From the NCBI GenBank assembly GCA_905178155.1, contig CAJINV010000003.1:191575-236653 (forward strand): a stretch of 45,079 nucleotides of DNA, written 5' to 3'. Below, piece after piece: positions 10,204 through 38,700 of this stretch (within the stretch, counting starts at the first letter, position 1; the number at the start of each line of letters is the position of its first letter). Origin of the DNA: Amoebophrya sp. A120. Lineage: Eukaryota > Protista > Dinoflagellata. The translations under genes and the position numbers were made by a program. The notes under the pieces were generated by a model. The model was not told where the DNA came from, ran no database searches, and saw only the letters and a list, made by a program, of their open reading frames with translations.

Positions 10204-13200
10204 ATGATGGCCGGCGGCGCCGTCCAAGAAAAGAAGGCTGGCGACTCAAGAACTACACCCGGAAGAAGTAGCACGGATGATGGTAGTACGGCGCGAAGAG
10301 ATGTTGGTGACCACACGACGAAAAGCAGTAATAAAGCGCGCACCGGCGAGGATCACCACCACCTCGGTGGAACAAATAATGACCCGGAGCTGCAGCAGAG
10401 CGCCGACTACGGCTCCGCCACATCGTCCAGTGCCGTCTCAGGGGAAATACGGATGCCGAGCTACATCACGTCACAACACCGTTCGGGCGCTAGCGACACG
10501 GCGACGGAGTCCTCGAAAAACGCCGCGGAAGTCCCTCCACCACCGCCGTATCAAACAAAAAAAGTTCGTCACGATCACTCATGCGCATTTTTGCAATACA
10601 AAATTGGCTGTCATGCGTAAAAATGCATGACAGCCAAGCTTCATAGGGGATTTCCCTATTATTTCTGCAATACAAGGTAAACTTGTGATGCTAAAAAAAT
10701 TTGTAATGCAAAACCTGCAAGTTAGTGACTGTGACAAACTTTTTTCTTTCCATACGCCGGACGAGCTGTATATCAATCCGGGAGGAGGCCCATCCACTTC
10801 CACAGCGACCGGCGACGAGGCATTTGCAGCAACCGCTGGACGAGGGGGAAATAATTACTACGGCGGTAATACAATTACGACGGCTGATGTCGGTGCTGCC
10901 GCTTCTTCGGCCTTGGAAGATGATTATCAACCGAGAGGACTTGTCCCGGAGGGCGAAACTAGCAGCCTCAACAACCCGCCGCATCCCTCCTCGAGCGAGG
11001 AAAATAATGATGGCGGCGCAACGAGCACCGTGGATATCGAGCCGATTCCCATCGGCGCAGGAGGGGGAAATGCCAGTCTCAACTCCTCCCAGCATCCACC
11101 TCCGGGGGATTTGATGTCCTATTTTCCCAGCACCAGTTCCTCTAACATCACTCCGCCGCCGGGAATGGTCTCCCCGGTGAAATCGCCCGGCAAGCATATA
11201 GTGCCCAGCTTCGGCGGAGCCGGAGGCGCGAAAAAGGGTGCGCCGCTGGGCAAAAAGGGTCCCAGCGTCGACTCGGCACCGAGTAACATCCTCCGAATGC
11301 TGGGAAAAACCGCCTCTGCCGCGTCCACTAACGCGGCGAACAGTGCAGGAGGGGGCCCGCCCGGGAGCAACCCCGGTGGCGGAAAAGGGGGGTTGCCACC
11401 CGGAAACAAAGGTATTGCTACCTGTAGTTTTGTGTGTGAACGTGAAGCATGTTGCTTGCTGTTACCCAACAACTCAAAAATCTATGCAATTTGAAGTTCG
11501 TAACGTGTAACACTCTAGGTGGCGGCGGTTTCTTTGGGGGAATGGGTGTTGGGGCGCAGTCCAAGGATGAAGCAGGAGAGGACGAGAATAAAGTCGAGGA
11601 GGAAGAAGACCCACAAAAGGTCATCGAGGATCTAGAAGCAAAGGACGGCTTCGAGAAGGAAAACGACCTGGTTACATTCTTCAAATACAAGGTAATCAAT
11701 GTTATACCAGTTATACCTGGTGTCGTCCTGTTGCTGTTTCTATTGATGCAGACTCGACATGCTTCTTGTGAGTGAAAACATAGCAGCTGCATCGCAAGCA
11801 ACAAGGAACAGTACCAAAGTCAAGTAGGCCTACTTCATGAACTACGTCGAGCTCGACCTTCTTATCTTGACGCGCAAGTACATCGATTTGATTTTGTGGA
11901 GAGATCTGACCTTACGACCACGACAGGTGGCCGGCGACTACACGTACACGCACTCGTCCATAATTGGCTCCGCGGATCAGCGGATGCCCCGGACGGGGAA
12001 ACTGAACGTGACCAGGCAAGATCACATGACCAAGCTGTTCTGCGCGATCGCGTTCTTCTACCGCCAGAAGCGCCCCTTGACGCTGGTAGAAATGGCGACA
12101 ACGCGGTTCCGCTTCTACGAAGATGTGGACCTCTTCTTACCCCCGGGCTTCGTCGATACCGGCGAAGAAATCAAGGCACTAGAAAGAAGATGGATAGCGC
12201 AACTGCTGAAAATTAGAGGTACTTTGCTGAACTACATAGCAGGTCCTGCTTTTCATGTTCACCTCCGGGTTCGATTTGCAATCCATATCCAAATTTTCGT
12301 TCCAGCAGAGCGACGTAGGGTACAAATAACACGTTACCTCCTGATTGCTGCACCAGTAGAAGACATGTGTACTAGAACAAGTTCAGAGCTACCTCTACAT
12401 TCTGTACTCCAAAAATCACGAGAAATCTATCACCAGGTGCGGTGTTTGGTGCCGTGTGGCGTTCGGATGACGTGCTGGGGATCTGCCAGAATTGCTTGAA
12501 AACCACGGTGCACGTGTTTTCCTCCTCCGGTTTTTCCACGAAGTCGCAGAGCTACAAAGTTTCCCTGCATTTCGTGTGGCCCCACCTGGTTGTGACAAAG
12601 CGGGAGGCCAAGGCCATCCGCGGTGCGACAATCGAGTTTCTTCGGGAGAACACGTCCCCGGAACAGGAGGCGTTGCTCCGCATCTCCTTCCCCGACTACG
12701 TTTACAACCCGGACAGCGAACAGACACCATGGGAGGAAATTTACGACGCCGCACCAATTGAAGGCGCCAGTCTGAAGATGCCCTTCAACGACAAAGGTAT
12801 AGCTTGCTTGAGTTTCATCACTTTCAACTCCTCTCCTCAACGAGCGCATTCTTGGTAGTTTCGTCTTACAACCATGCTTGGAATAGAATCTACTTTGAAT
12901 GAGAATTATATGATGCAGATGTGAGGTTCCATCGAACTACATGTGGTAGAAAAAAATCTCCTACAGGTATAAAACCTAACCGCGACACGAAGCAGAGCGC
13001 GAAGCTGGAGAACCGGCCGAAGCTGCCGGTGGGTACGTTTCTGGTGAACTTGGTGGCCTCGCAGGTGGAGGAATCCACCATGGAACTGCTGTACGGGCCG
13101 GACGATAAGGAGGACCTGAAGTGGTTATCGGACGGAAGCATCCGGCTCGACATGGAAAATCCCCCGCCCGTGGCGAACATCTGGATTTTTGCCTCCAACA

Positions 13201-15136
13201 AGGCGATCAAGCACGACCAGCTGCTTCTGCTGCACAACCTGCAGAACGACCCCAACATCTGCGACGACGACAGCGACATTGAGGAATACCTGCAGATCTG
13301 CTCCACCTCCGCGAGCAGCGGGGGCGGTGCTCCCAGCACCCGGCCGCAGTCCGGCCGGAGCCACTACCTCACCAACGACGATGGTGCCTCCACCGAAGGC
13401 CACCAGCACCATCTTGAGCGGCCCATTTTGGATGTGTACGAAACGGTAAAGAAGGGCCTACTCGGCTCGTGGGTCGACAGCAAGGGCCAGTTTCTGGAGG
13501 TGATTCCCTTCGAGGGGCCGGATTTGCACCGCCTCAACGTCGTAGCCAACGAGGACGGAACCCGGTTCAAAGTGGCGGAAATCGAAATCAGCGAGGACGT
13601 GTTCTCTAGTCCAGTGCCAGTCTATTTTAAACCCATCGACCACCACGGCGCTCCTGCACATGATCCACCGAGCAAAAATTCTGCCAAAAAAATAGATCCA
13701 GCAAAAACTACTACTGCTGGTGCCTCGAGAACCTCGGGAGACAAAGTTTCTTCTGAGGACGACTTTTTGAAGCGGAAAAACACGGAGGGGGCCATGAAAG
13801 AGGACCATAATTATAATTCCGGCTCAGCGGCGGGAAGGTCCTCTCCGAGTTCAACAGCAGCGAAGCAGGAAAACAAGAGCACAAACGATAGTAGTACAAC
13901 AACATCAAAAGGAGCTGCACCAGGCCACGGCCAGCACGACAAAAGCACCGACGACGACTCGGACGACGAGGGCAACACTGTGTTTGTGTGGCAGTACACG
14001 GCGGGGGATCCATTTGGCGTCTGGCACGACGTGGATGCGGACGAGGAGGACGGCGCCGACGCGCTAGCTGACTCGTGGATGTGGCGCAAACCCGCAGTGC
14101 CCATCGTGGAGGAGTGGCCCAGCTTTGGGAGCGAAATATGCGTCGAGGTCGGCGAATCCGTCGAGATCGACGCAAAATTCATGGTGCTTGCGGCAAAAGT
14201 CTACGCAATTGGCCAGGATGAAACGGTACTTATAAAGAAAGTACTTACTACTTGAGTGCTTTTGTTGAGACCGCGTGCAAGTAGGTGTACTGCGTAAATC
14301 TGAACCTAGTTTCTGTAGAAGACAGAGAAAGATGTTTTATGACTACGCGTCTTGTACCCCTAGAAGTTGTTCTTCGTATAGTTTGGGAGGAGAATGTGAA
14401 TGCCATCGCTTTTTCAACACTTGAATAAATGTCGTTTACTTAACTATGTTGTTTGATTCTCAGACGTCGAAGCTGCTGACCGAGCTGGTGTGGCGTGGCT
14501 GCGTGATTTTCAGTGCGGAAGATTTTGACGAAGGTGTGGTCGGTGGCAGCGTGAACGTCGCTATGGCCAGCATCGGGTCCGCGGCCGTGGGTCTCCGCGC
14601 TGTTCTGGACCTGCAGGCGTTCATCCCGGGCGACAAAGTTTCCGCCCTAACGGTGCTAGCAAACAACCCGGCCACGGAACAAGCGTTTAACGGAGTGGTA
14701 CGCTTATATAGCAGTTCTTCGTTGTTTCCTGTTGTCATCGTAGTGGTACACTGTATGCGTTAACAAGAATGATCAAACCATAGAGCAGCATATGCGGTGG
14801 GCTGCAACAGCATGGGAGCAGCTACACAGTGGAGCCGAGGGTAAATGTCTATAGTAGTTTTTTTTTCCAACTACACATCAGATAAGCAAGCCCTACCTCT
14901 CTCCTTTGGTTGAAGTGCTTGGCAACTACAAGCAAGATTTGCTGGAAGGCGATCACTACCCGGAAATGCGAGACCTTGCGGTCACAAAAGTGGAGGCCGG
15001 GCAGAACAAGGCCTCCAAGTTTGCGAAGGAAATTCGGAACGCAGTCCTGCGCGGCGACGATATTACCGCCTGCATTGGCGATTTCGAACTGTTCGACGCA
15101 GTCATGGAAGGCTACCGCCGAGCGGCTGGTGGATAA
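10204..15136 (+). CDS. Large protein with an archaeo-eukaryotic primase (AEP/PrimPol, NCLDV-primase-like) domain
   Basis: Exons 10204-10548, 10760-11411, 11519-11691, 11927-12218, 12437-12796, 12967-14225, 14464-14697 and 14882-15136 join in frame (first intron non-canonical, the other six GT-AG). AEP-like motifs RFYEDVDL (DxD), KVSLHF (His) and IYD...SLKMPFNDK. Confidence 0.72.
10549..10754. mobile_element. TIR introner-like element forming a non-canonical intron
   Basis: Ends TATCAAACAAAAAAAGTTCGTCAC... and ...GTGACAAACTTTTTTCTTTCCATA are imperfect inverted repeats. TSD CGCCG at 10544-10548 and 10755-10759. Removing 211 nt joins two different frames as PPP|DEL. Confidence 0.8.
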
Positions 15137-17277: not shown

Positions 17278-18248
17278 TCATTTGGCGACGTGAATGAAAA
17301 AACGGATGTTGGTCATGCGTCGTGGTGCAGAACCAAAATAGTTGTACTGCGCCCACCCACCATCTGTATTTGCTTTGCACGGCTATCTTGTCGTGATAGC
17401 CATGCCGTTCCGCTCTCTGGCGTCCTTCTTCTGCGTACAGAACGGGCAATGCAATGATCGCAAAACGACCCCCGCCTCTCTGAGAGTAACTAGAAGTACA
17501 GAGTAGCGAACTTTGAAACAAGGAGCAATACGACTACACCGACGAGAAACTCTCGCGAAGAAGTCGTTTTCAAGGAAAGGTGCCCCCATTTTTACGTATC
17601 TATCTGTACATCTGTGCGACCCTATCACGACCACAAGTCATGCAGGACAAGGTTTCTGTGTTCAGCTTCAGCGAAATGAAAGAGAAGACACAATGGAATA
17701 AATCAATGTGATCCGCTTTAACATGGTGCGCACTTCTTGCAAAGAGGAACAGGTTCCGTTTGATGATGAAAAGTGTAACAAGAAAATGGAAGATCAGAAA
17801 GAATCTCAAGGAAGATGCAACGACCAGGATATTTTTTGTAAGTGATGCGGCTGAATCCACAACAAGCATTTGCGTAGCGAGAGAAAAGATCTTGACAATT
17901 ACCCAATGATATGAGATCTGTTTTCCGTTTCGCTTCTTTCATTCAAGGACACTGGTGCCCATTCTTCCACGTATGACAGCATTTTGCACCTCTGGTGCTT
18001 ATTTGAGGCATCTAGTCTCCGCGACGGATCTTCGTGTTGTGGTTTACCTGAACCAGACTGCAAGGGAATTGCCTTGTTTCCCGACCATTTATTGGATTAC
18101 TAGGTTCTTGTGTTGAAGCGAGTCGAGACCGACATATACGAAACGCGCCGTTTCAGATGAACTACTATGATTATTTACTAAACCCTCGTTCTCCACCTCG
18201 TACAAAAATACGTTCGCCTGCAATTGTTGAATCGGCGACTCAGTGAAA

Positions 18249-21200
18249 ATGGCACCAAAAAAGAAGAACGCAAACAAGAAGAACACCGGGAATTCCGGTG
18301 GCGGCGACGACACGACTGCGGGATCGCCCGCGGGCGAAGTTCCGGACTTGAGCAATGTGGAGAACATCGTGGTTGGGTTGATCCAATCCGTCGAGAAGGT
18401 ACCGAACGGAACCCTGCTGAAGGTGCTGGTGGAGGTGCCAGATCGGGATGACGAGGTCTTCATCATTACCAACGCAAAGGTCGAAGAGGGCCAGAAGGTC
18501 GTCACAGCCATCGCACCCGTGCCGCTGCCAAATGGAGTGCAGGTAGCAGGATGAAATCCATTTTTCTATTGCACTCTTCTGTATTCCGCGCACGTTCACG
18601 TTGTGCAAAATTTTGTTTATGCAGGGGAAGAAGGTTTCGCTGTGAAAAGCCGATTACAGTACATGCAGTACATCATACACAAAAATAAAATGCAGGTGGA
18701 AGTTGCGACCATCGGGGGCTTTGACAGCGAGGGCATGTTCTGCGGGCCCCGAGAGCTGCTGTGGCCAACGACCGCGTTCCGGGCGGACCTTCCCGTCACG
18801 CTGCCGCAAGCGGAAATCGGCCCGGTGCCGAGCTACGAGGAGTGCCTGACACTGAAAAACAAACCCAAAGAGGAGAACGCGAAGAAGAAAAAGGGCAAGA
18901 AAGGCGCGGCCGGAGGCAACGACGAAGAAGATGACTTCGAGGCGGCGTTGAAAGCATTCGGGGTAGTGGAAGAGAGCAAAAGCTCCGGCTCCAAGGCAAA
19001 GAAGAAGGCCGCACCTCCTCCCGCGGCTAGTACAACACCGGAGAAGGCCAGTAGCAGCACAAAACCAGCAGCGGAGCAAGTACCCGCGGCTTCGGACGAC
19101 GCGGATGAGGACGGTGACGACGCAGCTGGCGACGAGGGCCTGACCGCGAAGCAGATCGCGAACCGCAAGAAAAAGGAGGCGAAAAAGCGCAAGGAGCAGG
19201 AAGCGAAGCTCAAGGCGCAGCAGGAGGAGGAAAATAAAAAGGAGGACGACAGCCCAGGCAAGGACGCGGGCGGTAAAAAGAAAAAGGGCGGCGCCGTCGG
19301 TAAGCTGCTCGCGGCGAAATTGGCAGAGCAGCAGGCGTTGGAGGAAGAGCGACAGCAAAAGTTGAAGGAGCTGCAGATACAAGAGGAGGCGGAGGAGAAA
19401 CGACTCGAGGAGGAGGAAAAACAAAAAGCCGAAAAAGAAAGGAAAAAGAAGGAAGAAAAGGCCAAGAAGATTGAAGAGCAGAAGCGGTTAGGCACGTACT
19501 TAACCGCCGCGCAGAAAAAGCAGCAGCAGGAGGCGCAGCGCGCGCGGGAAGCGCTCGGCCTGGACACGCACGTCGTGAGTAGCGCCCCGAAGGGCCCCGA
19601 GCTGATCGAAGTGGCACTCACGCAGCCGCTGAAGGACTTTTTCAAGAAGAAGTTGCAGTTCAAGAAGAAGGAGTGGGTGGTAGAGGCCCCGCTCCCCGCG
19701 GAGATCGAAGGTGCTGATGTGAAAAAGGGGGACGCGCTGTTTAAGATCAAGACCGACGAGGGCGCGAAGATCACGGACAAAAAGTTCGGGCTCGGGATGT
19801 ACCCCGTGGACGGCAGCTGCATCTTGGTCTTCAAGCGCGTACAGAAGGTGAACCAGCTGACGCTCTTCAACGAGGGGGCAAAGAAGAAAAAGGCAGCGGA
19901 GCAAAAGGAAGATTTAGTCGTAGAAGACGTGGACGAGACCACGACCACGACCGGGAAAAACACGAAAAATACGAGCAGCAGCCCCTCCTCCCCGTCGCGG
20001 TCACCGAAAAAGACGCCGCTCAAGGAAGAGGAACCGGCGCAGGAAGAGTCGGAAGACGACTGGGAAAAAGAGTTCGACGAAGAGGAAAAGAAGTCCAGTG
20101 AGGAGGTCGACAAGACGGACACGGCAGCCACCGCAGGAGACGCGAAAAAGAAAGCCGGTGACGGTAGTACAACTAAAAAAGACGAAAACGACGACACTGC
20201 ATCGGAGAAGGATTCGGACTCCGATGACGATTCCGACTCGGATAGCTCCTCGGAGGACGAGTATCTCGGCCTGCGGTCGCCGATCGTCTGTATCATGGGG
20301 CACGTCGATACGGGAAAAACGAAACTGCTCGACAAGATCCGCCGCACCAACGTGCAGGACGGCGAGGCGGGCGGCATCACGCAGCAGATTGGCGCGACGT
20401 TTTTCCCGGAGGCCTCGCTGCAGGAGCAGCTGGTCAAGGTGGACAAGGAGATGGAGCTCGACCTTCCCGGTCTGCTCATCATCGACACACCGGGGCACGA
20501 ATCCTTCAACAACCTGCGAAAACGCGGATCCTCCCTGGCCGACCTGGCGATCCTGGTCGTGGACATCATGCACGGCCTCGAACCGCAAACACTCGAATCC
20601 CTGGAAATGTTGAAGCAGCGCAAGTACTCACTTTTCTGAATAGAGTACACACGACACGAGCACGACACACGACACGCACTACCGAGTTGTAGCGTGGTGA
20701 AGTCCTTCTTGTTTCGGATGAGTATAAAAATATGTTATCAGCATGATGCAACTGACTATCAATCTTTCCACAGGTGCAACTTTATCATTGCGTTGAACAA
20801 AGTGGATCGCTGCTACGATTGGGACAGCAAATCTTATGTGGCTTTCAAGGACAGCTTTGAAAAGCAGAAGGAGCACACAAAATCCGAGTTTTGGGACAGG
20901 TACTTAAGTACTATTGCCACGAAATGTAGTAAAGCTACGAAATTTTCTTTTTCTCTGTAGTCTTTACTTGCTGCCAACCTGATAAAGAATGGATGTTGCA
21001 GCGCACGACAAGGCATATTGAACAGGCTTTTTTATTCGACCGTAGTTCATCTGTCAAAGTGTACTACTATTATCGGACACAACGCCCGAATCGAATGAAA
21101 TCGAGGGCGGCGCAAAGCTTCTTTTACTCTTCCATCGCACAAACCTCCAGGTTCGGCAAAATTCAAACGTCCCTCGCGGAGAAGGGGTTGAATACCTACC

Positions 21201-22945
21201 TCTACTGGGAGAACCCGAACCTGAAGCAGAACGTTTCCGTGATCCCCACCTCGGCGATTACCGGCGAGGGCGTCCCGGATCTGCTTTACATGCTGATCCG
21301 GTTGAGTCAGGAAGCGATGTACCGGCGACTGGAAATTAAAAAGGAGCTGGAGTGCACGATCCTGGAGGTGAAAACCATCGAGGGTCTGGGCACCACCATG
21401 GACGTGGTGTTAGTTAACGGCGAACTGAACAAGGGTGACACCATCGTCGTCCCAGGCATGAACGGCGCGATCGTCACACAGGTACATCACTTTGGATTTT
21501 TCATATCAGCCTCTCGACGTGCTGGTGATGTGCAACTAACCTGAACAACATCACCGAAGGCATGCAGATACTAGGAAAGAAAAAGAGGAGTAAACAGAAA
21601 AAATACACAACTCCTCCTGCGTTTATTTTGTCGTGACGCTGGGCTGGCACTGGCAGATCGAAGAGCAGGAGGACCACATGGAGTATGATTCGCTCATCGG
21701 TTCCAAAAGCACAATGTAAACCTCTCTTGCCAACGTCAACAGGTCCGCGCCTTGCTGACGCCGCAGCCTTTGCGCGAGATGCGGGTGAAGGGGGACTACA
21801 TCAACCACCGCAAAGTGGACACCAGCATGGGCATCAAGATTTGCGCCACCGGGTTGGAGCACGCCCTGGCCGGGGCCAGTTTGCGCGTGTGCAACGATCC
21901 GGAGGAGCTGGAGGACGTGAGGGAGGAAGTCGAGGACGAGTTTGAGGAAATGGTGAACGCGTTCGAGAAAGAAGATTTGGGAGTGTACGTACAGGCATCC
22001 ACCCTAGGGTCGTTGGAGGCTTTATTGGCATTCCTGAAGTCGATGAACATCCCAGTGTTCCAGGCGAACATCGGCGTCGTGCACAAAAAGGACGTAAAGA
22101 AGGCGGCCATCATGCGGGACAAGGGGAAACCGGAATACGCTGTCATTTTGGCGTTCGACGTGAAGGTACAGAAATTGATGAAAATGAATGATTATAGTTA
22201 CGTATCTATGTGTTAGTTACGACAGCATGATCTCGATGTTTCATTCCACTGCATTAGCCCTACGGCTGCACGAGCACGCCTGCTGGTGCAGCTCTGGGGT
22301 CCTCTACTACGTACTTGTTTTCTCTCCGAATAGCTACTACTCAGATGAAAGTGAAATTCAAATTCTATTATCTTCAAAAAACAAACCATCCACCAGGTCG
22401 ACGCAGACGCGCGAAAAGAGGCCGATCGTAGCTCCACCGGCGTGACAATTTTCACGGCGGACATTATTTACCACTTGTTTGACCAATTTACCAAGTACAT
22501 GGACAACATCCGTGAATTAAAGAAGAAGGAGGTCACGGACGAAGCCGTCTTCCCGTGCGTGCTGAAAATCATCCCCCAGTACGTGTTCAACAAGAAGAAC
22601 CCCATCATCGTTGGCGTGGACGTGGTGGAAGGCGTGGTCAAGGTCGGCACCCCGATCTGCATCCCGGAGCAGGATGGACTGGAGATCGGTCGCGTGATCG
22701 GCGTGGAGAAGGATAAAAAGGTCGTGGACAAGGGCGTCAAGGGCGAGTCGGTCTGCGTGAAGATCCAGCCCACGGTGCTGCAGTCGCACATCGTGCTCGG
22801 GAGGCATTTTTCCGTCACCCAGGCGTTGTACTCGAAACTCACCAGGCAAAGCATCGACTGCTTGAAAGAGCATTACAAGGACGAAATGAGCATGGATAAC
22901 TGGAAGCTCGTCGTCACGCTCAAAAAAGTTTTCGGTATCCAGTAG
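18249..22945 (+). CDS. EIF5B: Translation initiation factor eIF5B with an N-terminal tRNA-binding OB-fold domain
   Basis: Exons 18249-18542, 18696-20623, 20774-20899, 21151-21481, 21743-22165 and 22397-22945, all GT-AG and in frame. Motifs [69 protein letters not shown] and C-terminal LKKVFGI. Confidence 0.96.
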
Positions 22946-23918
22946 CGACGGATAGAAGAAGTACTAGCGACGAGAATGGCTTTCTGCAATCATGTGTAGT
23001 TTACGAGTCAAGAATAATGTATCAGGACCAGGAGCGGCATTGCGATCGCGCAGCCGCTTGTCTACTGCGGCTGTACGCAGCTCCGAGCAGCACTATCTAT
23101 TGCGACTTTTCATTTCATCACATTTCATTGCCAGGAGAATATTTTTACCATGGCGATTCCAAGCAAAAGCAACTTGTTTTTTCCCGACTTGACGAAGTCT
23201 GCGCTGCCGTGGCCTACCTACAAATCTTGTGTGTTCGAAGAAGAAATCGATAGTTTTTCGCAAGTCCTCGAGCTGCCAGTTGAACTCAGTTAGATCGCAT
23301 TCCCATTGAACAAGAAGAATCTTCACACGTGATTGTGAACGGGGCTCGAAACGTGGTCCGAACCCGAAGGCAGATCGAGAAGCATTCAGGCTAGTAGACG
23401 AAAGCGTATCTTCTTTGCGATTAATTACACAGGTCCTTCATCATCCCATGCCTCTAATATACATGGATCTTCTTTCTGCAATCCATGGCGATGGCCCTTG
23501 GCCAACGTCTCAACCTACCCCTCGTAGCCATTGGTGTAGTTTTGTAGCAAGATGCATTTGTTATTGTTTTTCCATCCTAACTTTTTACACCAGATCGACG
23601 CAGCGACACCCTAGGACTCCCTTTATGTTTTCATTTTCCCGAAGAAATCATTCGAGTATCAAAATCATCTTCGACCCTCTCTGGTACTCGTGACACCTAC
23701 GCTTTGTTTCGTATACCATTCGAACCCGAACACTGGTCTAGAAAAACATAGATCGATTTCCGAACACTAGTTTCTTGACCTGGATGCCACGTCGAGCGGA
23801 CTACTAGCCGCCTTTGAACATTTTGATGCTGGCTTGAATGGGTTACCCCTACTTCACGTCAACGATACAGTCATCGCCCTATTAACATCACTAGACCACT
23901 TCCTGGCTCGTTGTGGCC

Positions 23919-26046: not shown

Positions 26047-26489
26047 CCCGGATGGAGTTAGCAGTTTATCACAGCGACAACATCTTCACATCCGAGAACG
26101 AAAAGAAGTAAGTACATGACTTCCACGAAATAATGATACGCAGCGGCTGCAGTCCAAGAGTGAAAGCCACCGTTTAAGAATATGGACACGTACAAGGCAG
26201 ATGATTGTTCACAAGAACCACGACCGCCTAGCTATGTCCTGGGCAGTTTTGTGAGCGATTTTAGTGCCTCATGGTTGTGTTCCTAGAGGACATTGTTCTT
26301 GTCGAGATTAGTCATATCAGGAATGTCGTGTGTCAATTCCTTCGTGCTTCATCCACTTTCCTCCACCTCTTTACTTTACTCTGTTATCTGTGTGCTTATT
26401 GCCTGCACATTTCTTGTTCTGGCATTCGTACTCAGGTCATGTTTCACTGAGAAGTGGAAGTGCGTGGCCACGGCCAGCGAAGTAAGAAG

Positions 26490-28841: not shown

Positions 28842-31267
28842 ATGGCGCTCCAGCAGTCGCAGATGAGCATGGGCAGCACGCGGCGGCCGCACCGGTCGAT
28901 GTACGTGAGTAAGTCGGACAATCTGCATATCAACTGTAAAAATGTCTGGGTCTGGAAGATTCTGACACTTGTCATGCACGTTTTGCATGAGCCATGATGT
29001 CTGTGAAGATGCATACCCTAGCAATACAGATTTTTTGAGGGCGTCTTGATGCGTATTCCGCATGACAAATGCCTTCTCAGCGTAGCAAAAATTGCATTTC
29101 CTTTGGTACTCATGCAATACAGATTTTTTTGGAATCCAAATGCAGCATCACAAGTTGCATTCTTCCAGACCCAGACACTTTTACATTTGATACTGCACCA
29201 GGTCGTCTCCCGGAACAGCGGTATGCGCGCGGACTCGGGCACTTTCGGGAAGAATCCGCGGTTTGCGGCGAAGCGACTAATGTCCCCCACCGGCGCGGAC
29301 TCACCCTGGGGAAAGGCTTTCCTCGAGCACAACCGCTTCTTCAAGGATCCGCTGGAATCACAGATTGGGTCCTGCAGTGGCAAGAAGGCCGGCTTCGGCT
29401 ACGGCAGCCGACCCACGTACGTCCGCGGCACGCCAAACCTGGGACCAGGCACCTACACACCCATCACCTCAGTCGCGAAGACCGCATCCAGTTTGGACGG
29501 AAAAAAGTAATGAAATTGTGCTTGATGGTGGTCGGTCTCGGTTTTCCTATATGAGATCTTGGTCCTCGTCGTGTGCAGTAAGCTGCAAAAATGTTGGGAC
29601 GTGCTCTTCAGTGCTGTATCTCTTATTTCTCTATACTGTGTTGATATGCTGCTGTATGCATATCGTACTGAACGACAATGCAAAAACAAAATTAATGTAT
29701 AAATTCAGGTACTGCAATGTAACTCTGAAGCAGCGAACGAAGGTGGTAGTTGGAGCGGTAAGTCCACACGAGGAGGCACGGAAGCCCGGTCCGGGCACGT
29801 ACACACTACACTCCGACATCAATGGTTTGTACGTGACACGCGGCGACAAGAAGAACTGGGTCGGACCACCAGCGTATAATTGCATCTAATTTGATGATAT
29901 CATGCGTGCCCGTGCTAAAATTCTTCATGAGCGTAGTCCCTCGTTTAAAAAAATACTTCGATTTCATTTTCGAGCTACCACGAATGTAGTCCTGTTTCAT
30001 CTCCGACTTTTTTCGTGCTTTTCAATCCAATGTGAAATCCTACAGGCCAAAAATGGGCATGGCTTTGAAGGAAGTAATCGACCTTGCTGGAGATGCTTTG
30101 TACAATGTAGCAGAAGACATGGGCACCAAGAACGTCAACAATTGGGCGGGAAAGTCTACTTTCGGCTTCGCAAAACTCGGAAGTATCTGTTTTTTTGTTT
30201 GTTGTAGTGCATCATGTTGCAATTGTTTCTGTTTTTGTTTTGTGGCGTCTGATGAAAAATCAAAGCGCGCCCCTCTTTTTTCTAGCGTTCGCTCGCGACA
30301 CGAGTATTGTCTGCATGATGATGAACGGAGCTCGTGCAGTTGAAAACGAAAAGCGATATATAAATTTTATCCTCCGCTGCATGTATGATAATGATCCCCT
30401 ATCAATTACAGACCCACACTCTTCCCAATCTCCCGACGGCGAACTTTACTACTCGCACGTAAAGTTGACGGAGGACTACACGAAAGTTGCGCGCGCCAGT
30501 GGACTCGGAAAGGGCGAGCGACCCGTCCTGAACCCCGAGCAAACCACCGCGGGCCCGGCCAGCTACTTCCCCGTGGCTTCGTGCGCAAAGACCACCAGCC
30601 CGCTGGACGGGTTCACGGTCCGCAACCTCTTATCAACTGCAAAAATGTCTGGGTCTGGAAGATTTCATGTTTGTCATGCTTGTCTGGCATGACTCTTAAA
30701 TCTGTCATGCAAGTTACCCGCCAAGAGCTTCGTTTTTCTGTGATGCACAACCGCAGTTTGTGTTTGTCATGCAGAATAGGCAACACCTAGGGCTAGGAGC
30801 TCAGAAACTTGTCATGCTGCGCCAGCATTTGTAGCCTCATCATGAGACGCCACCCAGCGTCACAAGTTTCCAGACCCAGACATTTTTACTTTTGATACCT
30901 CTCCCCGGTCACCCAGTTCGGGAAAATCAGCTCGCTGAAAATGATACCAAATGTAAAAATGTCTGGGTCTGGAAGATTCTGAGATTTGTCATGCATGTTT
31001 TGCATGACCCAGGATGTCTGTAATGCACGACCGCGCATCACAGATTTTGAGCGGGCTTCCTGATGCCTACTCCGCATGACAAACGCCCTCCCCGCGTAGC
31101 ACAAACTAGACTCCTCTTGCTGGTCATGCAATACAGATTTTCCTAGAGTCCAAAGTTAGCATCACAAGTTCCAATCTTCCAGACCCAGACATTTTTACAT
31201 TTGATAAATGAAGTCCATGACCAGCATCGCACCCTCGATGAACCGCACCATCACTCCCGGCGAGTGA
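28842..31267 (+). CDS. ODF3/SHIPPO-like PG-rich-repeat axonemal protein
   Basis: Exons 28842-28927, 29198-29506, 29709-29873, 30046-30182, 30412-30630, 30903-30944 and 31212-31267 (three GT-AG introns, three introners) give a continuous frame to TGA at 31265. Repeats LGPGTY, PGPGTY and AGPASY. Confidence 0.78.
28928..29192. mobile_element. TIR introner, family A copy 1
   Basis: ~32-bp TIR TATCAACTGTAAAAATGTCTGGGTCTGGAAGA...TCTTCCAGACCCAGACACTTTTACATTTGATA. TSD CTGCA at 28923-28927 and 29193-29197. Contains an in-frame stop. Confidence 0.92.
30631..30897. mobile_element. TIR introner, family A copy 2
   Basis: Same TIR as copy 1. TSD CCTCT at 30626-30630 and 30898-30902. Removing 272 nt gives RNLSPVTQ. 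Confidence 0.92.
30945..31206. mobile_element. TIR introner, family A copy 3
   Basis: Ends TACCAAATGTAAAAATGTCTGGGTCTGGAAG...CATTTGATA. TSD AATGA at 30940-30944 and 31207-31211. Interior is collinear with copy 1. Confidence 0.92.
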
Positions 31268-32570
31268 AGAAGATCAAGCTGCTCCGGACGTTTGGTAAAC
31301 GTGGCACATAGCCGCGCAAACGACGGAGAAGAACGCGGAAACAAAAAGACAGTTGATTTATTCTTGGCCTCAGAATTTATTGTGTTGTTGATGGATGAAG
31401 GCACGAAAGCGGTGACTACAAATTTCATCTGATATTATGCTAATTCGGAAATTATTACAATCGGACCATATACTTCTAAGCAGGTAACTAACAAATCTCA
31501 ACATTATCGAAAGAAAAGAACCCTCAGTATCGTCTTGATGTAGCTTTTCTTTGTTCGAATTCAATTTGACCATGTACATAGTTTTCTTGTTTCGTGACAA
31601 CTTTCACATGTAAATTATTTTGCGCGCCCGATGGTGGCTGTACAATAAATAAGGTAAACTCAACATTTTCAGTTCTTGTAGATCATTTGGACTTGTTAAC
31701 TTGTTTTGCCCTGTTAATAAATATTTCTGTATTTCTTCATGTACACAAACAAAAAACCGATAAGAATACGCCACTAGGATGCATCGGACTATTCTTCAAA
31801 TGCTGCGTTGATGTTGTGTTGAGTTAAGCTGTATGCACTTACCTAACGTGCAAAGCAAAGGAAGCCGCTGCAACTTGTTGTGTGTTTTGGTACTGAGCAG
31901 GGGCGGTGTGGCTGATGTCGCTTTTCATTGTCCGACGTCGAGACCTTGACCTGAGCGCAGCGTAAGGCATTTGAATTCAACATGAACACGAGCATCAGAT
32001 CACGAGCGAAGGCATACAACAGGACTAGATCTTCATGCACGCGGGAGAAATCTTAATCTCAATCTTTGACGAGAGCTGTCGCCGTGACACGCGAGAATGC
32101 AACCACCTAACATGCTGCACAGTAGAGCCTTGCAGTAGCTTCCAAGGCGCCGCGGCAGCGGCACGACGAACAAGAGCGCAGTGAGTCTGTGGAGCTCCTT
32201 TTCCGAGCAATCGAAGCGACGCTTGTTGAATACGTAGGAACAAGCTTGCGTTGGTGAGCAGCATTTCCGAAGAAACACTACAACAGGATAATTCCAACAA
32301 GTTGGTTGTAGAGCATACGCTCATCGTTACTCTTATTCGAAGACGTGAAGATTGCGACGCAGATATAGGTGGAAAGGTAAAAGCGATATATTACTACAGC
32401 CGAGCTCTCAGGCAGTTTCTCGTGTCAGCCACAACAAGATGAAGATGGCAAGAGGAGTGTGATGAAGAACTTTCTGTTGAGAGGACCACGACGGGCGACG
32501 GTGCAGCAGCGTTTACTTCTGCCATGAGTTGTAGCGAGCACGGGCGAGCACGAACAGGATTAACACTCGC

Positions 32571-35078
32571 ATGTTATGGGGGAGCAGACGTCCACTTCCA
32601 ATCGTGCGTTGCGATGGTGGCGACGGCGAGCAAGACCATCAGGCGACCCGGAGCATTAGCAAGGCGTCTGCCGTCTCGGATTTGGAACCCGAGGGTTCTC
32701 CGAGTACCGCACGAAGCACAGGGACGAGCGCGGCGTTCCGTTCGCTTCCCAACACTCCCACAGTTGGGGAAGAGCGCCCCGAGTTCCGTTCTTTTCGCAG
32801 CCAGCGAGATGAAATACACGAATATGGTGCCACGACTCCATTTTCCACTCGCGACGCCAACAATTTTTATCACCGCGAGCCGGCCGGCCAGCGTCTTGTC
32901 CCGAGTTGGGTCGAGTCGCGGAAAACTGGGGAACACCAGGCGAAGTCTTTTCTGCACAGCGAGTTTGTACGGAAGCGCTCCCTGGCGCGCTTCGCGTCCG
33001 CGAGTGAGGAAGCGGAGGTCGAGACACAAACTCTGACGGAGGCCCTGTCACGAGCGCCCAGCTTGGTAATGTTTGAATCTTCAAGTAGATGGACAAGTAC
33101 TTACTATAATGTGCCAGGCTTCGTTGTCACAGGACCGGCGCTTATACAAATAGGAAGAATCTTTCATCACTCATCTTCGAATTACAGGTTCTGGAGCCCA
33201 GTTTCGAGAGCAGTTGGCGCACCGAAGTGATGGCCGGAATCTGCTCTGGCGTGGTGCAAGTGGTGCTTTTCAACCCCTATGACCGTGTATCAAATGCAAA
33301 AGTGTCTGGGCCTGGAAGGATGCGAACTTGTGATGCGTGTTGCGGATCATACAAAAATCTGTGTTGCATGACTTGCAAAAGGTCCCCATTTCTAGCCACG
33401 CCGAGGGGGCATTTCTCATGCAGAATAGGCATCACCAAGTCCAAGACCAAGGGGCTGCCGCTGCAGAACCTGTGATGCTAGGCCCTGCATTCGAGACTCG
33501 GCGGAGCTTGAAAAACTGCATGACAAATCTCAGAATCTTCCAGACCCAGACATTTTTGCATTTGATACCGTGCCCTGTATTTGAGTGTGATTCACCAGAG
33601 AAAGTTTCTGCACCGCGAGAACTGGGGCCGCAGCTTCTCGGATTTGAACAAGGGTCTGCTGCCGAACTTGCTGCAGCGCGTCATCAGCTACGGCATGTAT
33701 TTTCCGCTCGAACAAATGTGGACCCGGGTACTGCTGAACTGCTTTCGCAGCAGGACAACTACTGGCGGCGCTTTTGTTAATGTCGGTGAAGATCCGGCTG
33801 CCAGTTCTTCCTCCTCGTCCGCTGGAAGTAGCCGTATGAGTACTGATGGCGGTGCATCTACTTGTTCTACTGCAGATAATCGTGATGTGGGTAGTTTTTT
33901 CCCGGGTAAGCAGGAGATCCTGTACGTGGCTCCGCTCGCGGGGCAGCTCACTGGCGCCAGTAGCGGGCTGGCGACAAACTACCTGAGCTTGGTGAAATAC
34001 CGCCAGTACCAGCGGGACACACACAAGCCGCTCATCCACGATGTGCGCAAAATCTTCCACAAAGAAGGCCGCCGTAAGCAAAATGTTATTTGTTCACGAC
34101 TATGCTTTTGTCGTGAATGATGTTCTCGTGAAAGTGTAACTAGTGAATTTTGGTTTTGTTGCTATCAAACATAGAAAAAATCGAAATGCGAGAAGATCAT
34201 TAGAGGTACGTGCATGCAAAAGAAAGAAAAATTAAACAATAAAAACCGAAACAGTAACGCGCGGTCTGGGAGCTACGATCTGCCGGGATTCCGTGTTTGG
34301 GAGTGTTTTCACCTCCCTGCGAGTGTTGCTCCAGGACGAGGAACGTCAGTACCTTGTGAACTTTTTCGCCGCGTCTCTGGCAACGGTGCTGTCCGGTCCC
34401 CTGAACTACGCCCGCAACCTGCAGTACGCCTATCGTAGCGGGTGGAGTAGCTCGGAGACGGAACGGCCGATGCGATCCGAATCATCCACTAGTAGTCAAA
34501 GCAGGCCCGCCTCCGCGACGAACGAAAACAGCACGAAATTTCAGCGCGGACGGGTGCTGGAGGACTATCCGACGGTGCGGCGCGTCTTGCGAGAGCTCCA
34601 CCGCGATCTGGTGTACGGGGGTCTGGCCGGGTATGGGAGTGTCAGGATTGAAAACGACAATGTTGAAATAACTTGTAATGCATAAAATCGATACCAGTTG
34701 TGTTGGAAGCCCAATTGCCGAGCGGCGCATATCAAATTTCGGCACCGTCTAAATCCTGTTTGTCATGCTGCTTAGGGACAGAAGGCGTCCTTTGTCATGC
34801 TACTTTAGTAGCTGCATTGCAGACCCCAAACAGGCTGACAGTCGGCGCCATTTGCCATCCCTGCAAGAGAGGCATTTCATGCCTTGCAATCTATGCATGA
34901 GAAATTATTTCAACTCTGACGATTTCAATCCTGACGCTTCCATACCGGGTGGCGAAACGTGGGAATGAAGTTGCGAATCGGATGGGGCACCCTGCGCGTC
35001 GGAGTTGGCATGGCCACCGGGAATTTCTTTTACCGCTACTTCGAAAACCTCCTGAACACCACCACGCTGTCCTTTTGA
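32571..35078 (+). CDS. Mitochondrial carrier family (SLC25-like) protein with an N-terminal extension
   Basis: Exons 32571-33065 (start uncertain), 33188-33287, 33573-34073, 34255-34631 and 34950-35078. Spliced motifs FNPYDRALYLS, LTRGLGATICRD, SGPLNYARN and LRIGWGTLRVGVGMA. Confidence 0.82.
33288..33567. mobile_element. TIR introner, family A copy 4 (inverted relative to copies 1 and 3)
   Basis: Same TIR. TSD CCGTG at 33283-33287 and 33568-33572. Its 3' subterminal CATGACAAATCTCAGAATC is the reverse complement of the 5' subterminus of copy 3. It splits NPYDR|ALY. Confidence 0.92.
34632..34944. mobile_element. TIR introner, distinct family
   Basis: TIR TATGGGAGTGTCAGGATTGAAA / TTTCAATCCTGACGCTTCCATA. 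TSD CCGGG at 34627-34631 and 34945-34949. Removal restores GLAG|WRNVGMKLRIGWG. Confidence 0.9.
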
Positions 35079-35751
35079 AATTTTTGATATGATTTTTTAC
35101 TAGCATAAATATGTAGATCATGAATCTGTAGTAATATCCTTTGCGCAGGAGTTACGAGCAGTCGTGCTGCAAGATAAACGCGTTCAGTTGTGTGAAGAAA
35201 TTCATCTGCAAAAATTCTGACTCGATGCACGAGCTCAGGCTCTTGCATCTGCAACGAACTGCCACGAGTAGCTGGAAAACAACATCAACAGGATCGCTTA
35301 CACGACCCATGATCGACAGGGGGCGCGGGCGCCCAGCAATCGATTCGTGCTGAACACTGTCACTGCCTCAAGGTCCGATCAAACTACAAGGCAACCGTGA
35401 ACCAAAATTGTACGTTTTCACTCCAGATGAGTCATTTTTTTCCTGATCAAAGCAATCCGATGGATTGCAAACCTCCCTAGGAACTTTTGCCGACACCCCG
35501 ATCTCTGACTGAGCCTAGCATAGTGTAACTTTTATGATTTTTGTTTATGTTTTCCAACACATGATCGGCTTTCCTTTTCGAAACAGTCTACCGAGAGAAG
35601 ACATCGTACTAAAAATTTGAGTGGACTATTGAATGCGCACAACCATGTACAAGTACAACTCTGAGTGTCGAAAGTTCTGTTCACGACCTTATGAATGAGA
35701 TAACCTCTCGCCTGCTCCCAACTTTGTTCACTGTTGGACCACCTCCCCTAG

Positions 35752-38700
35752 ATGAAGACCCTGTTTCTCAAATTACATTTTTTGCAACAATGTTGCCTTA
35801 TAGCTTTGCGGTCCAGCGCATTTATTTTTGGTGACCGACCACTATGTCGCGCTCGCGCAACAGTTCTTTTCGCAGAGGCGAGGACCACCGGAACCACGCA
35901 ATTCCCCGGCGATGATGACCTCCAAACAGCGCAGCCGCAGGCCCCCGACCCCGGCACAACGACGTCCGATCATCTTGCCACGTACCTCGATCAGTTTGGG
36001 CCCCCGGACGGCATGCTCGAAAAGTATTTTGAGAACGTGAGACTACGAAGTTCCGTGCCATGGGAGAACACGCTGAACCGGTGGCCGTTGCACGTGGCAG
36101 ATCTTTCGTGGGAAGACGGACAAGGTGTCTGGGCCAAATTCGTCGAGCGTGTGGGAAGCCATTTCCTGTCGCCACGTCGATCGGCAGCCGAGCGGCTGCA
36201 AGAGATCGATTCATGGTTTATCGAGGAAGACCGTTCTTTCGTGGCCGGTGCCGCAGATGGGTCGCCGGAAAATGTGGGGGCAAGGACCGCTAATATGGTC
36301 GATGCTGCTGGTGACGAAGACTCATCTGAAGCAGAGCCCTCGCTGTGGCACTTCCTGCCAGCGAACTTTTTCGCGGACGGAAAAGATGAGAACGGCCTGC
36401 CACTCCGAGCGGTCCTTCGAGACGCTTTGGGACCTCTTTTGGACGACCACGAAGAAGAACCCACCCTGGAGGACTTCAAGGAAAAGGTACCCAAACGCAT
36501 ACGGTTGCTTCTTCCTTGGGAGGTGCTGGAGCGAATCCTCTTTCTTGGGCGGTTGCGGCGAGTAGCAAATGCAAAATCTTCCTGCGGGTCCATCTTCGCC
36601 CCTGTGTGTTAGTTTACCGGACTTTGGAGCTCACGCGGGCTGCAGTTGTATAGTAAGTATGCATGAGTAGAACGACAATAAACGAATGTACTTATTTTTT
36701 ACAGACGTGGAGACCCAATTGATTTCATTCTGTGGTGCTCCGGCATTGCTTCTGAGTCTACTGGCACTTACACTTAGATCGTCAGGTCTGCTACGTGCTC
36801 GAAGCTTTGCAATACCGCTTTTGTGCGACCTAGCCTTGCAAATAATTCATCGGATACATACAGATTAGTACATGTGAATTACCTAGTCCTAGGGTTGTTG
36901 TCTGGGCTCAGTAAGAAGTTTTTCCTTGGATACAGAGTGTTCCACCGGTATTTGGGGAAGGACGAGGGGTTCCTCCTTAGCTGCCGCGAGTTCTGGCTTC
37001 ACCACGTAAAAACGCTGAAAACGAACACCAGCGTGCACGTTGACGGATTAGCGCAAGGGACGCGGAGTATCGAGCAGTGGATGGATTCGCTGCACGAGGG
37101 TCGGCCACCTCCGGCGACGTCGCAAGGCGACCCTCGTGGCATCCAAAAGCAGCGGTATTTCCTGGCCTTGAACTTAGCGGCTATTGAAGACGAACTCTCA
37201 GCGGCGCGGCTTGCGGAGGAGAATCTCGCACAGGACTGGTTAATGACGGATGATGAAGAAGATTCCTCAGAAGTTTCTCTTTCCGAAGAGGAAGAGGCTA
37301 GTTTTCAGGAGTACGCCAGCACCGTCGATGCACTGGCCACTCGTAGTGAATTTGCAGTGCGCCTCGGTCGCATAGTATCGGCTTCTGAGCAAGTAGTTGC
37401 ACAACCGGCGCAACAAGCAGGAATAAACAATTCTTCCGGAGGACCATCGAGCGGTCCACCCGCCTCGGTCGTACAGCCGCCAACGTTAGAAGAATTTCTC
37501 GACGTTCTGGCCAAACACCCACCGCAATTCCTGCAACCGCCAAAGTGGCAGCGGGCCTTCTGGTTCTTTTTGTTCGGTTTACAGATGCCGGGTGGGCAGC
37601 AACTACTGCCCCCGCAGTTCGCGTTCGGCGACGTTGCTGGGTGGGCGCACCGGCAGCTGAAGAAGCTCGCACCCTGGCTGACCCACAACGTGAAAAAGAA
37701 CTTCAACCAGAGTAGTGCTGCACCATCTTCGGGTACTAGTTCTGGTGCTCCCCCTCCGGCCCCCCCTCCGCCCTTCGGACCTGCGCGGTACATACTGGCG
37801 GTGGTGAAGCTGTTGCACGTTTTCCTGCGGGAGGTAACCGCGGCGCCGCCGCTGCTGGCCTTGCGGCAGCGATTGCGGGACGATCCGGACGTTCCAAAAC
37901 TGCTGAAGTACGTGGGCAAACACCGGGTTTTCCACGATTGCTTCCGGCATTTCCGCTACGCGACGCGCGACGGGATGCTCAGGGCGGGAGGTGGTGTGGC
38001 CACGAAAACGGATTTCCGGTCCTTCTTTCAGAACATTCTCCGTTCCCACTACCTGGACGTGGCGGATTTGCGGCGCAAGCAGCACAAGCGCGACCGCGAC
38101 GCAGAAAACTTCGACACCGCCGCCGCCTTTTGGGGCAACTTGCTGTGGGTCCTGATTTGCGTGACCGCGGTTCTGGCTCTGGGAAACATTGCCGCGGTGG
38201 TCTATCTCCGCTGCTCGTGGGTACGGAAGCGAAAAGAGGCGGCCGCCGCAAAAGCCGCAGACCGGGCCGCCTGGTCGTTGACGCCGCCGCGCCCAGATGT
38301 TGCAGGAGAGTATGGAAAGAGCAGTTATGAGGACGGGAAGAGGAGCGAGCGAAGCAGCTGCGGTTATAGTTCCTCACCTACATTTGCTAGTCATCTGGCA
38401 GATGATAGCATCAAGATCATCCAGGTCGGAAACAACAGGAGCGCGGCCGAGCTAAACCCGGCTGCAGCACCGACCGCCGTCGGTACAGAATTTTGCCCTG
38501 GTGCCGTGGTTGCATCACAAAACCTTCTTCCAGACGATACCGACACGAAAGTTGAGTTTTCGGGCCCGACTGCGGCCACCACGCCCCTGTTAGTATCGGA
38601 AAATAAAGACGAAGACGCGTCACAACTATTGTGCCCGGCGGGTGCAGCAACTCCTAATGCAAATGACGGGATCATGTCTGCGACTGCGTTTGTCTTTGTT

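What the first reader, a model, noticed from the sequence alone, without database searches (positions are those of the whole stretch)
10544..36937. Transposon-derived non-canonical introns: TAY...ATA inverted termini with a 5-bp TSD, seven copies in four genes
Seen: elements at 10549-10754, 28928-29192, 30631-30897, 30945-31206, 33288-33567, 34632-34944 and 36563-36932 all interrupt coding sequence. All have TIRs ending TAT/TAC/TAG...ATA. They are flanked by unrelated 5-bp duplications (CGCCG, CTGCA, CCTCT, AATGA, CCGTG, CCGGG, and degenerate GCGAG/CAGAG). Each carries an in-frame stop or frameshift. Deleting the element plus one TSD copy (211, 270, 272, 267, 285, 318, 375 nt) restores the frame, including the carrier motifs NPYDRALYLS and LRIGWG. 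No register within the TSD yields GT-AG. At least three different TIR sequences obey the same geometry. Known: introner-like non-canonical introns with inverted and direct repeats are described in Amoebophrya, so the class itself is not new. Inference: removal is defined by the hairpin, independent of AG, and precise enough to make insertions into conserved genes harmless.
Basis: partly seen in the sequence, partly recalled or inferred. Interest (0 to 1): 0.92.

Follow-up and report, generated by a model that had tools for sequence, protein, structure and literature searches.

The report
Amoebophrya introners spliced without GT-AG
Seven small hairpin-ended transposon copies interrupt four genes of a marine parasitic dinoflagellate, and transcript-like assemblies lack six of them exactly although no cut position gives the usual GT-AG signals; the class is already published, and the only addition is a likely cut position one base before and four bases after the element.

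Summary
All seven elements lie at the stated coordinates; six have exact 5-bp duplications, and all stop the frame if retained. Transcript-like contigs of one study lack element plus one duplication: directly for two copies, by exact length arithmetic for three, by a break point for one. 10549-10754 was not tested. DNA-like contigs keep the elements.

They are Amoebophrya introner elements (Farhat 2021, PMC7789003), which already reports the TAT start, 5-bp repeats, hairpin model and RNA support.

In 180 further copies from related contigs the duplication is 5 bp and of free sequence. Both orientations occur, and AG is not required (5 of 62).

Imperfect duplications suggest the cut: upstream copy kept at positions 1, 2 and 4, downstream copy at position 5 (one gene model only). 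The intron would read N-TA(T)...ATA-NNNN, putting the element's TA where this organism's GTA donors have it.

One exactly removed copy folds no better than shuffles, so a long hairpin is not needed. Most likely machinery: a relaxed spliceosome (inferred). No autonomous transposase found. This scan noted similar introns in other dinoflagellate genomes.

The parts
10544..10759 (+). E1: 206-nt element 10549-10754 with CGCCG duplication on both sides, in the first long exon of a gene (weak AEP_C962R hit in a later exon)
   Evidence: fold z -11; 5 similar copies in related loci; no RNA laid here
28923..29197 (+). E2: family-A element 28928-29192 with CTGCA duplication
   Evidence: joint 28922 to 29193, skips 270, 5 letters fit both sides, in X1 and X4, absent from X5; fold z -7.6
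30626..30902 (+). E3: family-A element 30631-30897 with CCTCT duplication
   Evidence: removal inferred from the 392-nt unlisted middle of X1 record 1 and X4 record 5, which equals the predicted exons
30940..31211 (+). E4: family-A element 30945-31206 with AATGA duplication, left end TAC
   Evidence: same arithmetic as E3; the RNA-like piece resumes at 31206
33283..33572 (+). E5: family-A element 33288-33567, inverted relative to E2 and E4, with CCGTG duplication, in a mitochondrial carrier gene
   Evidence: 95-nt unlisted middle of X4 record 6 equals 33187-33281; orthologue P0001 is continuous across the site; orientation
34627..34949 (+). E6: 313-nt element 34632-34944 of another end type with CCGGG duplication, same carrier gene
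   Evidence: the X4 piece stops at 34626, the edge of the duplication, with 358 letters of the contig unlisted; protein continuity with P0001
36558..36937 (+). E7: decayed 370-nt element 36563-36932 with imperfect duplication GCGAG/CAGAG
   Evidence: X1 record 3 joins 36559 to 36935 with 0 other letters, keeping the upstream copy at positions 1-2; no significant fold
28842..31268 (+). Host gene of E2-E4: 338-codon frame with PGPGTY-type repeats and three ordinary GT-AG introns (29507-29708, 29874-30045, 30183-30411)
32535..35079 (+). Host gene of E5-E6: mitochondrial carrier family protein with two ordinary GT-AG introns (33066-33187, 34074-34254); start not fixed
   Evidence: Mito_carr E 5e-4, below the curated cut-off; 49% identical over 415 aligned columns to an Amoebophrya sp. 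A25 protein
35752..39540 (+). Host gene of E7: two long frames put in phase by removing 375 nt; start not fixed; no Pfam hit

Best explanation
These are short non-coding elements with inverted ends and a 5-bp target duplication (Amoebophrya introner elements, likely non-autonomous DNA transposons) that transcript-like assemblies lack exactly together with one duplication, and they are likely cut out of the pre-mRNA by a relaxed spliceosome. Shown: the anatomy; free target sequence; insertion in both orientations; loss of element plus five bases from RNA-like but not DNA-like contigs. Inferred from imperfect duplications: the 5' cut falls one base before the terminal TA(T) and the 3' cut four bases after the terminal ATA, giving an intron N-TA(T)...ATA-NNNN. 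The element's TA then sits at intron positions +2/+3, as in this organism's ordinary GTA donors, with any base allowed at +1. Inferred: the 3' cut is placed by distance from the element end, helped by pairing of the two ends, with no AG. Because both ends carry the same motif, either orientation would splice, and insertions in exons would be nearly neutral. Inferred: one transposase in trans, not found here, mobilises several end types that share the terminal motif and an internal TGTVATGC repeat.
For: Exact joints or exact length matches for 6 of 7 window elements in contigs that also lack GT-AG introns; DNA-like contigs run into the elements and one spans E7 whole. Related contigs: 108 of 132 paired candidates have an exact 5-bp duplication; in a wider set 155 of 180 do (that set required at most one mismatch), with 142 different sequences. 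Coding phase on both flanks fits keeping one duplication in 98 of 140 copies (p about 1e-18 against one third) and 62 of 71 confident ones; orientation 11 against 10; +1 base G in 22 of 62, AG end in 5 of 62. Register, upstream copy kept: positions 1-2 (E7); positions 1 and 4 (L074, four RNA-like runs); position 4 (L036: Ala in the A120 Rab5 P0006 and in 93 of 101 homologues where the motif was found, of 120). Register, downstream copy kept: position 5 (L154: Leu in A120 model P0123). All five RNA-delimited ordinary donors begin GTA. In PMC7789003 Table S4 all nine commonest A120 non-canonical pairs have T second, nearly all spliceosome proteins are present and U1 snRNA was not found.
Against: Nothing here shows which machine cuts: no lariats, no branch point, no knockdown. 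The upper bound of the register rests on one automated gene model. The L074 contigs differ from that locus at 5 of 256 letters (places not shown) and no DNA run was laid there, so those joints may be empty sites of another strain. Table S4 may reflect an aligner's liking for GTA-like donors. X1-X4 are RNA by guess and come from one study. The one certain RNA run laid (X9) covered no exon of these genes. E3-E6 are inferred from lengths or a break point, and E1 is untested. No autonomous element was found. A spliceosome free at +1, -2 and -1 at once is hard to square with known second-step chemistry (own knowledge).
Confidence: 0.6

Rival explanations
1. Same elements and same exact removal, but by a spliceosome-independent route: an endonuclease and ligase (tRNA-splicing or IRE1 type, or the unknown euglenid machinery) recognises the paired ends and cuts with a one-base 5' and four-base 3' overhang. 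This is.
For: Six of seven window elements fold far better than shuffles (z -5.7 to -14). No base is fixed at +1 or at the acceptor. U1 snRNA was not found in A25 or A120 but was in a strain with canonical introns (PMC12005148). Euglena non-conventional introns have a comparable lopsided spacer, 3 against 5 nt (PMC12501133 section 8), and leave as circles (PMC11282704).
Against: E7 has no significant fold yet is removed exactly. The inferred register lines the element's TA up with GTA donors. Nearly all spliceosome proteins are kept.
Confidence: 0.3
2. The skipped form is a reverse-transcriptase template-switch artefact at hairpins flanked by direct repeats; the real transcripts keep the elements.
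For: Direct repeats plus secondary structure are the known recipe for false non-canonical junctions (PMC4176328 passages). All RNA evidence here is assembled cDNA-type data from one study.
Against: Retention would put stops into a conserved carrier gene whose protein is continuous in orthologues and into a Rab5 gene holding three elements. Flanks keep coding phase for one duplication in 98 of 140 copies. E7, with a 3-nt repeat and no strong fold, is skipped exactly.
Confidence: 0.04
3. The elements are excised from DNA in the expressing stage, like TA-bounded ciliate IESs, so no unusual splicing is needed.
For: TA-bounded inverted ends resemble IES ends (recalled, not tested).
Against: The DNA-like run shows no 270-nt joint and holds the elements (101 weaker joints were not shown). 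Element sequence is present in a certain RNA run (113 reads on another copy, X9). Stage-specific DNA was not examined.
Confidence: 0.03
4. The genes use nearby GT-AG or GC-AG sites, or are dead genes.
For: In-frame G[TC]-AG pairs exist within 30 nt of every element.
Against: The listed joints and contig lengths fit only the exact removal. The genes are present as spliced contigs.
Confidence: 0.02

Closest known systems
Introner elements (IEs) among the non-canonical introns of Amoebophrya sp. A120 (Farhat et al. 2021, PMC7789003; catalogued as TIR DNA families of unknown superfamily in Gozashti et al. 2025, PMC12130899, supplementary file 8)
   Same: TAT start followed by seven variable bases and an A run; inverted ends; 5-bp direct repeats (Fig. 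S19 legend); length about 250 nt; RNA-supported junctions without GT-AG; many families; no transposase inside. Loci carrying the same families encode proteins identical or near-identical to A120 models.
   Different: No difference in kind. The paper leaves the border position open (Fig. 3 legend), though its commonest repeat placement and Table S4 agree with the register inferred here. The later catalogue gives duplication lengths of 2-5 and mixed mechanisms in the 21 of 58 A120 rows read. Added here: a uniform 5-bp duplication, both orientations, a register from imperfect duplications, and one copy spliced without a strong hairpin.
Euglenid non-conventional introns (PMC12501133, PMC11282704)
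   Same: MITE-like origin, paired ends, no GT-AG, fixed spacers with a longer 3' side.
   Different: The Euglena signature is N3-CDG...CHG-N5-6 followed by a purine; these elements have TA(T)...ATA. Euglenid introns leave as circles; the product here is unknown.
MITE-derived introners of Micromonas, Aureococcus and Symbiodiniaceae (PMC9860276, PMC11282704)
   Same: Non-autonomous TIR elements with target duplications that become introns without changing the mRNA.
   Different: Those carry or co-opt GT/GC and AG from the element or the duplication. Here the duplication sequence is free and AG is absent in 57 of 62 copies.
Non-canonical spliceosomal introns of Fritillaria tunicates (PMC11282704 passages; PMC13326754 search listing)
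   Same: Transposon-derived introns that escape GT-AG and are handled by an altered U2 spliceosome; the model for the machinery proposed here.
   Different: Fritillaria introns keep preferred ends (AG-AC, AG-AT). Here both +1 and the acceptor are free.

Membership tests
Amoebophrya A120-type introner element | Inverted repeat joining the two intron ends | tested here: met
   15-19 of 20 terminal bases complementary in E1-E6, 11 of 20 in E7
Amoebophrya A120-type introner element | Direct repeat of 3-5 nt at the exon-intron borders | tested here: met
   5 bp exact in six, 3 of 5 in E7; 108 of 132 candidates exact in related loci
Amoebophrya A120-type introner element | End motif TAT, seven variable bases, at least three A | tested here: met
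   A run at positions 11-13 in six of seven elements (not E6); left ends of E4 and E7 read TAC and TAG
Amoebophrya A120-type introner element | Repeated elsewhere in the genome | tested here: met
   E1-E6 have 5, 105, 39, 107, 96 and 5 matches over at least 70% of their length in 158 related loci, E7 none; summed contig depth on family A is thousands of times the flank level in X5 (not a copy number)
Amoebophrya A120-type introner element | RNA-supported removal at a non-GT-AG junction | tested here: met
   two direct, three by length, one by break point, one untested; runs are RNA by guess but lack GT-AG introns
Amoebophrya A120-type introner element | Host is an Amoebophrya of the A25/A120 kind | tested here: met
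   best named homologue of the carrier is Amoebophrya sp. A25; loci with the same families match A120 proteins
MITE (non-autonomous TIR DNA transposon) | Short, non-coding, TIR, fixed-length duplication of free sequence | tested here: met
   109-496 nt, median 262; 142 different duplications among 155; a nested insertion with its own 5-bp duplication in L074
MITE (non-autonomous TIR DNA transposon) | Autonomous partner with a transposase and the same ends | tested here: inconclusive
   no evident transposase frame in 12 long or one-ended copies, read over at most about 1 kb and judged by eye without a family scan; 0 matches in viral contigs; no genome held
IS3EU-type transposons (TAY termini; recalled) | 6-bp target duplication (recalled) | tested here: not met
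   duplication is 5 bp
U2 spliceosomal intron | GT/GC donor and AG acceptor | tested here: not met
   no register in the seven; 0-2 of 62 at any register
U2 spliceosomal intron | Lariat intermediate, dependence on U2 and U6 | not testable with these tools
   needs lariat sequencing or inhibition
Euglenid non-conventional intron | CDG...CHG signature at +4 and -8 | tested here: not met
   ends read TA(T)...ATA with no fixed CAG/CTG pair
Euglenid non-conventional intron | Released as full-length circle | not testable with these tools
   no raw RNA reads covered these genes

The most novel reading that the evidence does not exclude
Amoebophrya has a splicing code with only two fixed intron letters: any base followed by TA opens the intron, and the 3' cut is measured four bases past the element's mirror-image ATA with no AG. 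A symmetric transposon end therefore supplies both splice signals in either orientation, and a spliceosome lacking normal U1 and AG recognition removes it exactly, even after the long hairpin has decayed.
Probability: 0.45. Interest if true: 0.7.

Novelty: already known. Interest (0 to 1): 0.4.

Why it matters
The elements themselves are a published curiosity. How they are removed is still open, and the original paper left the borders undefined. If the inferred register holds, it gives exact cut sites and a two-letter donor rule. That makes the choice between a relaxed spliceosome and a separate endonuclease-ligase route directly testable. It would also explain how tens of thousands of transposon copies can land in exons in either orientation at little cost. 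Imperfect target duplications offer a cheap genome-wide way to read the register from existing RNA-seq.

Tried and rejected
No whole genome is held, and the related contigs could not be extended, so no genome-wide count, DNA-level empty-site search or transposase search was possible. The run search listed no holder on record as RNA. X9, the one certain RNA run laid, gave 116 reads, all on another copy of the element and none on exons, so it says nothing about these junctions. A loose TA...TA scan was at chance level. A stop-free-frame test discriminated poorly (84 against 82 of 86 at 60 nt; 15 against 4-6 of 69 at 270 nt) and was replaced by a codon-phase test. The codon model can miscall orientation: L074 was called + and -. 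The L074 lay was meant to test position 5, but that element proved to be nested inside an older one, so positions 1 and 4 were tested instead. Three other position-5 mismatches (L002, L019, L100) are synonymous and cannot be read from proteins. L034, L089 and L150 gave no usable frame evidence. The search for an annotated protein across E1 returned only a low-complexity chance hit. Pfam gave nothing for 11 of 14 exon translations, Rfam nothing for the window, viral contigs no element end. A branch-site reading of the TTGAT near the 3' end was considered and left: other ends read CCATA, GCATA or GGATA.
Full report
Observation. The seven elements (E1-E7 in window order) are at the coordinates given, with the flanks given. 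Removing the element and five bases takes out 211, 270, 272, 267, 285, 318 and 375 nt, and no register in any duplication gives GT-AG. Each element stops the frame if kept. A strict scan finds six such structures against none in 20 shuffles. E7 alone is not above chance in a loose scan and rests on its end motifs and on RNA-like data. E2-E5 form one family (68-84% alike), E5 inverted. E1, E6 and E7 give no blastn match to the others, yet six elements share an internal motif, TGTVATGC, which has 23 of its 26 window hits inside them; E7 has none.

Host. The E5-E6 gene is a mitochondrial carrier: Pfam E 5e-4, below the cut-off, with an Amoebophrya sp. A25 protein as best named homologue, 49% identical over 415 columns and continuous across both sites. 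This is protein continuity, not a DNA-level empty site. Related loci carrying the same element families encode a Rab5 exon identical to an A120 model and a piece matching a second A120 model. The organism is therefore an Amoebophrya of the A25/A120 kind.

RNA evidence. No run holding the stretch is on record as RNA, but X1 and X4 behave as cDNA: they skip the GT-AG intron 29507-29708, which X5 keeps. They are two samples of one study. E2: joint 28922 to 29193, 270 skipped, five letters fitting both sides, in X1 and X4 and not in X5. E7: one X1 contig joins 36559 to 36935 with no other letters. E3 and E4: both contigs have an unlisted middle of 392 nt, equal to the predicted exons of 137, 214 and 41 nt, and the model totals 1766 nt, the length of the X1 contig. 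E5: a 95-nt middle equals 33187-33281. E6: the X4 piece stops at 34626, the edge of the duplication; its last 358 letters were not listed. X5 contigs run from the flanks into the elements and one spans E7 whole. The tables were cut (101 joints and 13,503 pieces not shown). X9, certain RNA, covered only another copy of the element.

More copies. Of 132 paired candidates, 108 had an exact 5-bp duplication, 13 one mismatch and 11 more, several of these mispaired across neighbours. Adding other end types gave 180 elements with at most one mismatch (155 exact), 109-496 nt long, with no bias to multiples of three (71, 56, 53). The 155 duplications hold 142 different sequences. With a codon model trained on window frames, scoring each flank separately, the phase fits keeping exactly one duplication in 98 of 140 copies with enough flank (15 of 155 dropped) and in 62 of 71 confident calls. 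Among those 62, no register gives more than two GT-AG introns. The 21 that could be oriented against E4 lie 11 one way and 10 the other. So the elements sit largely in exons, at free targets, in both directions.

Where the cut falls. A perfect duplication hides the cut; an imperfect one shows which copy the product keeps. E7 keeps the upstream copy at positions 1 and 2 (no other letters between contig and window). In L074, four RNA-like runs carry the upstream letter at position 1 of one element and position 4 of another. Those contigs differ from the locus at 5 of 256 letters and no DNA run was laid, so they may be another strain or empty sites; they then show only the ancestral letter. In L036 the upstream copy gives Ala and the downstream Asp at position 4; the A120 model and 93 of 101 homologues with the motif (of 120 listed) have Ala. 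In L154 the A120 model has the residue given by the downstream copy at position 5. Together these point to a cut one base before the TA(T) and four after the ATA. The upper bound rests on a single automated model. At that register the first base is free (G 22, A 18, C 13, T 9) and the last two are AG in 5 of 62. The element's TA then lies at +2/+3, as in all five RNA-delimited ordinary donors here, which begin GTA.

Hairpin. E1-E6 fold far better than shuffles (z -5.7 to -14). E7 does not (z -0.3, and +0.71 with flanks), and its end duplex is no stronger than those of ordinary introns. It keeps the end motif on both sides and a residual stem, and at the inferred register begins GT. A long hairpin is thus not needed, at least in this one copy.

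Mechanism. Most likely, non-autonomous TIR transposons are mobilised in trans by an unidentified enzyme making a 5-bp staggered cut, then removed from pre-mRNA by a relaxed spliceosome. That spliceosome would read N-TA as donor and place the 3' cut by distance from the mirror end. I put the exact removal at about 0.95, the register at about 0.6, and the spliceosome over a separate endonuclease-ligase at about 2 to 1. The main rival is the latter, as proposed for euglenids. Template switching during cDNA synthesis is a real hazard for hairpins with direct repeats (PMC4176328, passages). It does not explain the kept coding phase, the conserved proteins or E7.

What is known. PMC7789003 (read: abstract, passages, sections 10 and 16 whole, supplement passages and part 3 of 5; figures not seen) describes these elements in A120: TAT start, seven variable bases, A run, 3-5-nt direct repeats with a 5-bp example, hairpin model, 29,850 copies in 1,954 families, no U1 snRNA found, no transposase found. 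Its Fig. [quoted passage not shown] That agrees with the register inferred here, possibly through aligner bias. PMC12130899 (passages; 21 of 58 A120 rows of supplementary file 8; files 13-14 not searched) lists most of these families as TIR DNA elements of unknown superfamily, with duplication calls of 2-5, and notes one family with Copia/Gypsy-like frames between TIRs. That is a lead for the missing enzyme, since Copia integrases make 5-bp duplications (recalled). Also seen as passages: PMC11282704, PMC9860276, PMC11453091, PMC12005148; PMC12501133 abstract and section 8; PMC13326754 listing and a term search without a mention of Amoebophrya. Roy et al. 2023 (Curr Biol) appeared only in reference lists and was not read. 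Five searches turned up no paper that reads the register from imperfect duplications. Subscription papers, unseen figures and unread supplement rows may hold it.

Verdict. A real, well-supported example of an already described system. The small addition is a testable cut register with a two-letter donor rule, and one copy spliced without a strong hairpin. Novelty: already known. Interest 0.4.

Noticed in passing
window 7337-9638: A 2.3-kb element with 97-nt, 99% complementary inverted ends, flanked by TAA on both sides (PIF/Harbinger-like, recalled), filled with about 16 tandem copies of a 133-nt unit. Unrelated to the introners.
   Followed up: partly
L074 594-1179: Nested insertion: a family-A copy (601-869) sits two bases inside one end of an older element (599-1174); RNA-like contigs skip the whole 581 nt.
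   Followed up: yes
L036 160-1008: A Rab5 gene carries three elements in about 850 nt, inside the conserved GTPase domain.
   Followed up: partly
window 36933-36937: The downstream duplication of E7 differs at two bases and creates TACAG, a canonical-looking acceptor one base off the frame-keeping length; the one contig seen does not use it.
   Followed up: partly
window, inside E1-E6: Internal motif TGTVATGC is repeated 3-5 times per element across unrelated end types, and occurs in 179 of 180 elements in related loci; possibly a transposase or splicing-factor binding site.
   Followed up: partly
window 31156-31206 (matching another copy elsewhere): 113 raw reads of RNA run X9 carry the 3' end of a family-A copy with other flanks, and X1 and X4 show the same upstream loose end: one copy is abundant in RNA.
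   Followed up: no
L080 601 to L081 323 (one contig): A family-A element of about 970 nt with a CGCCG duplication and foreign internal sequence without a long frame; other one-ended copies also carry foreign interiors.
   Followed up: partly
window 18248-22946: Multi-exon translation-factor GTPase gene (GTP_EFTU hit, eIF5B-like by recall) in which no element was found.
   Followed up: no
window 1-249 and 44284-45079: Tandem arrays of 81-nt and 67-nt units at the two ends of the window.
   Followed up: no
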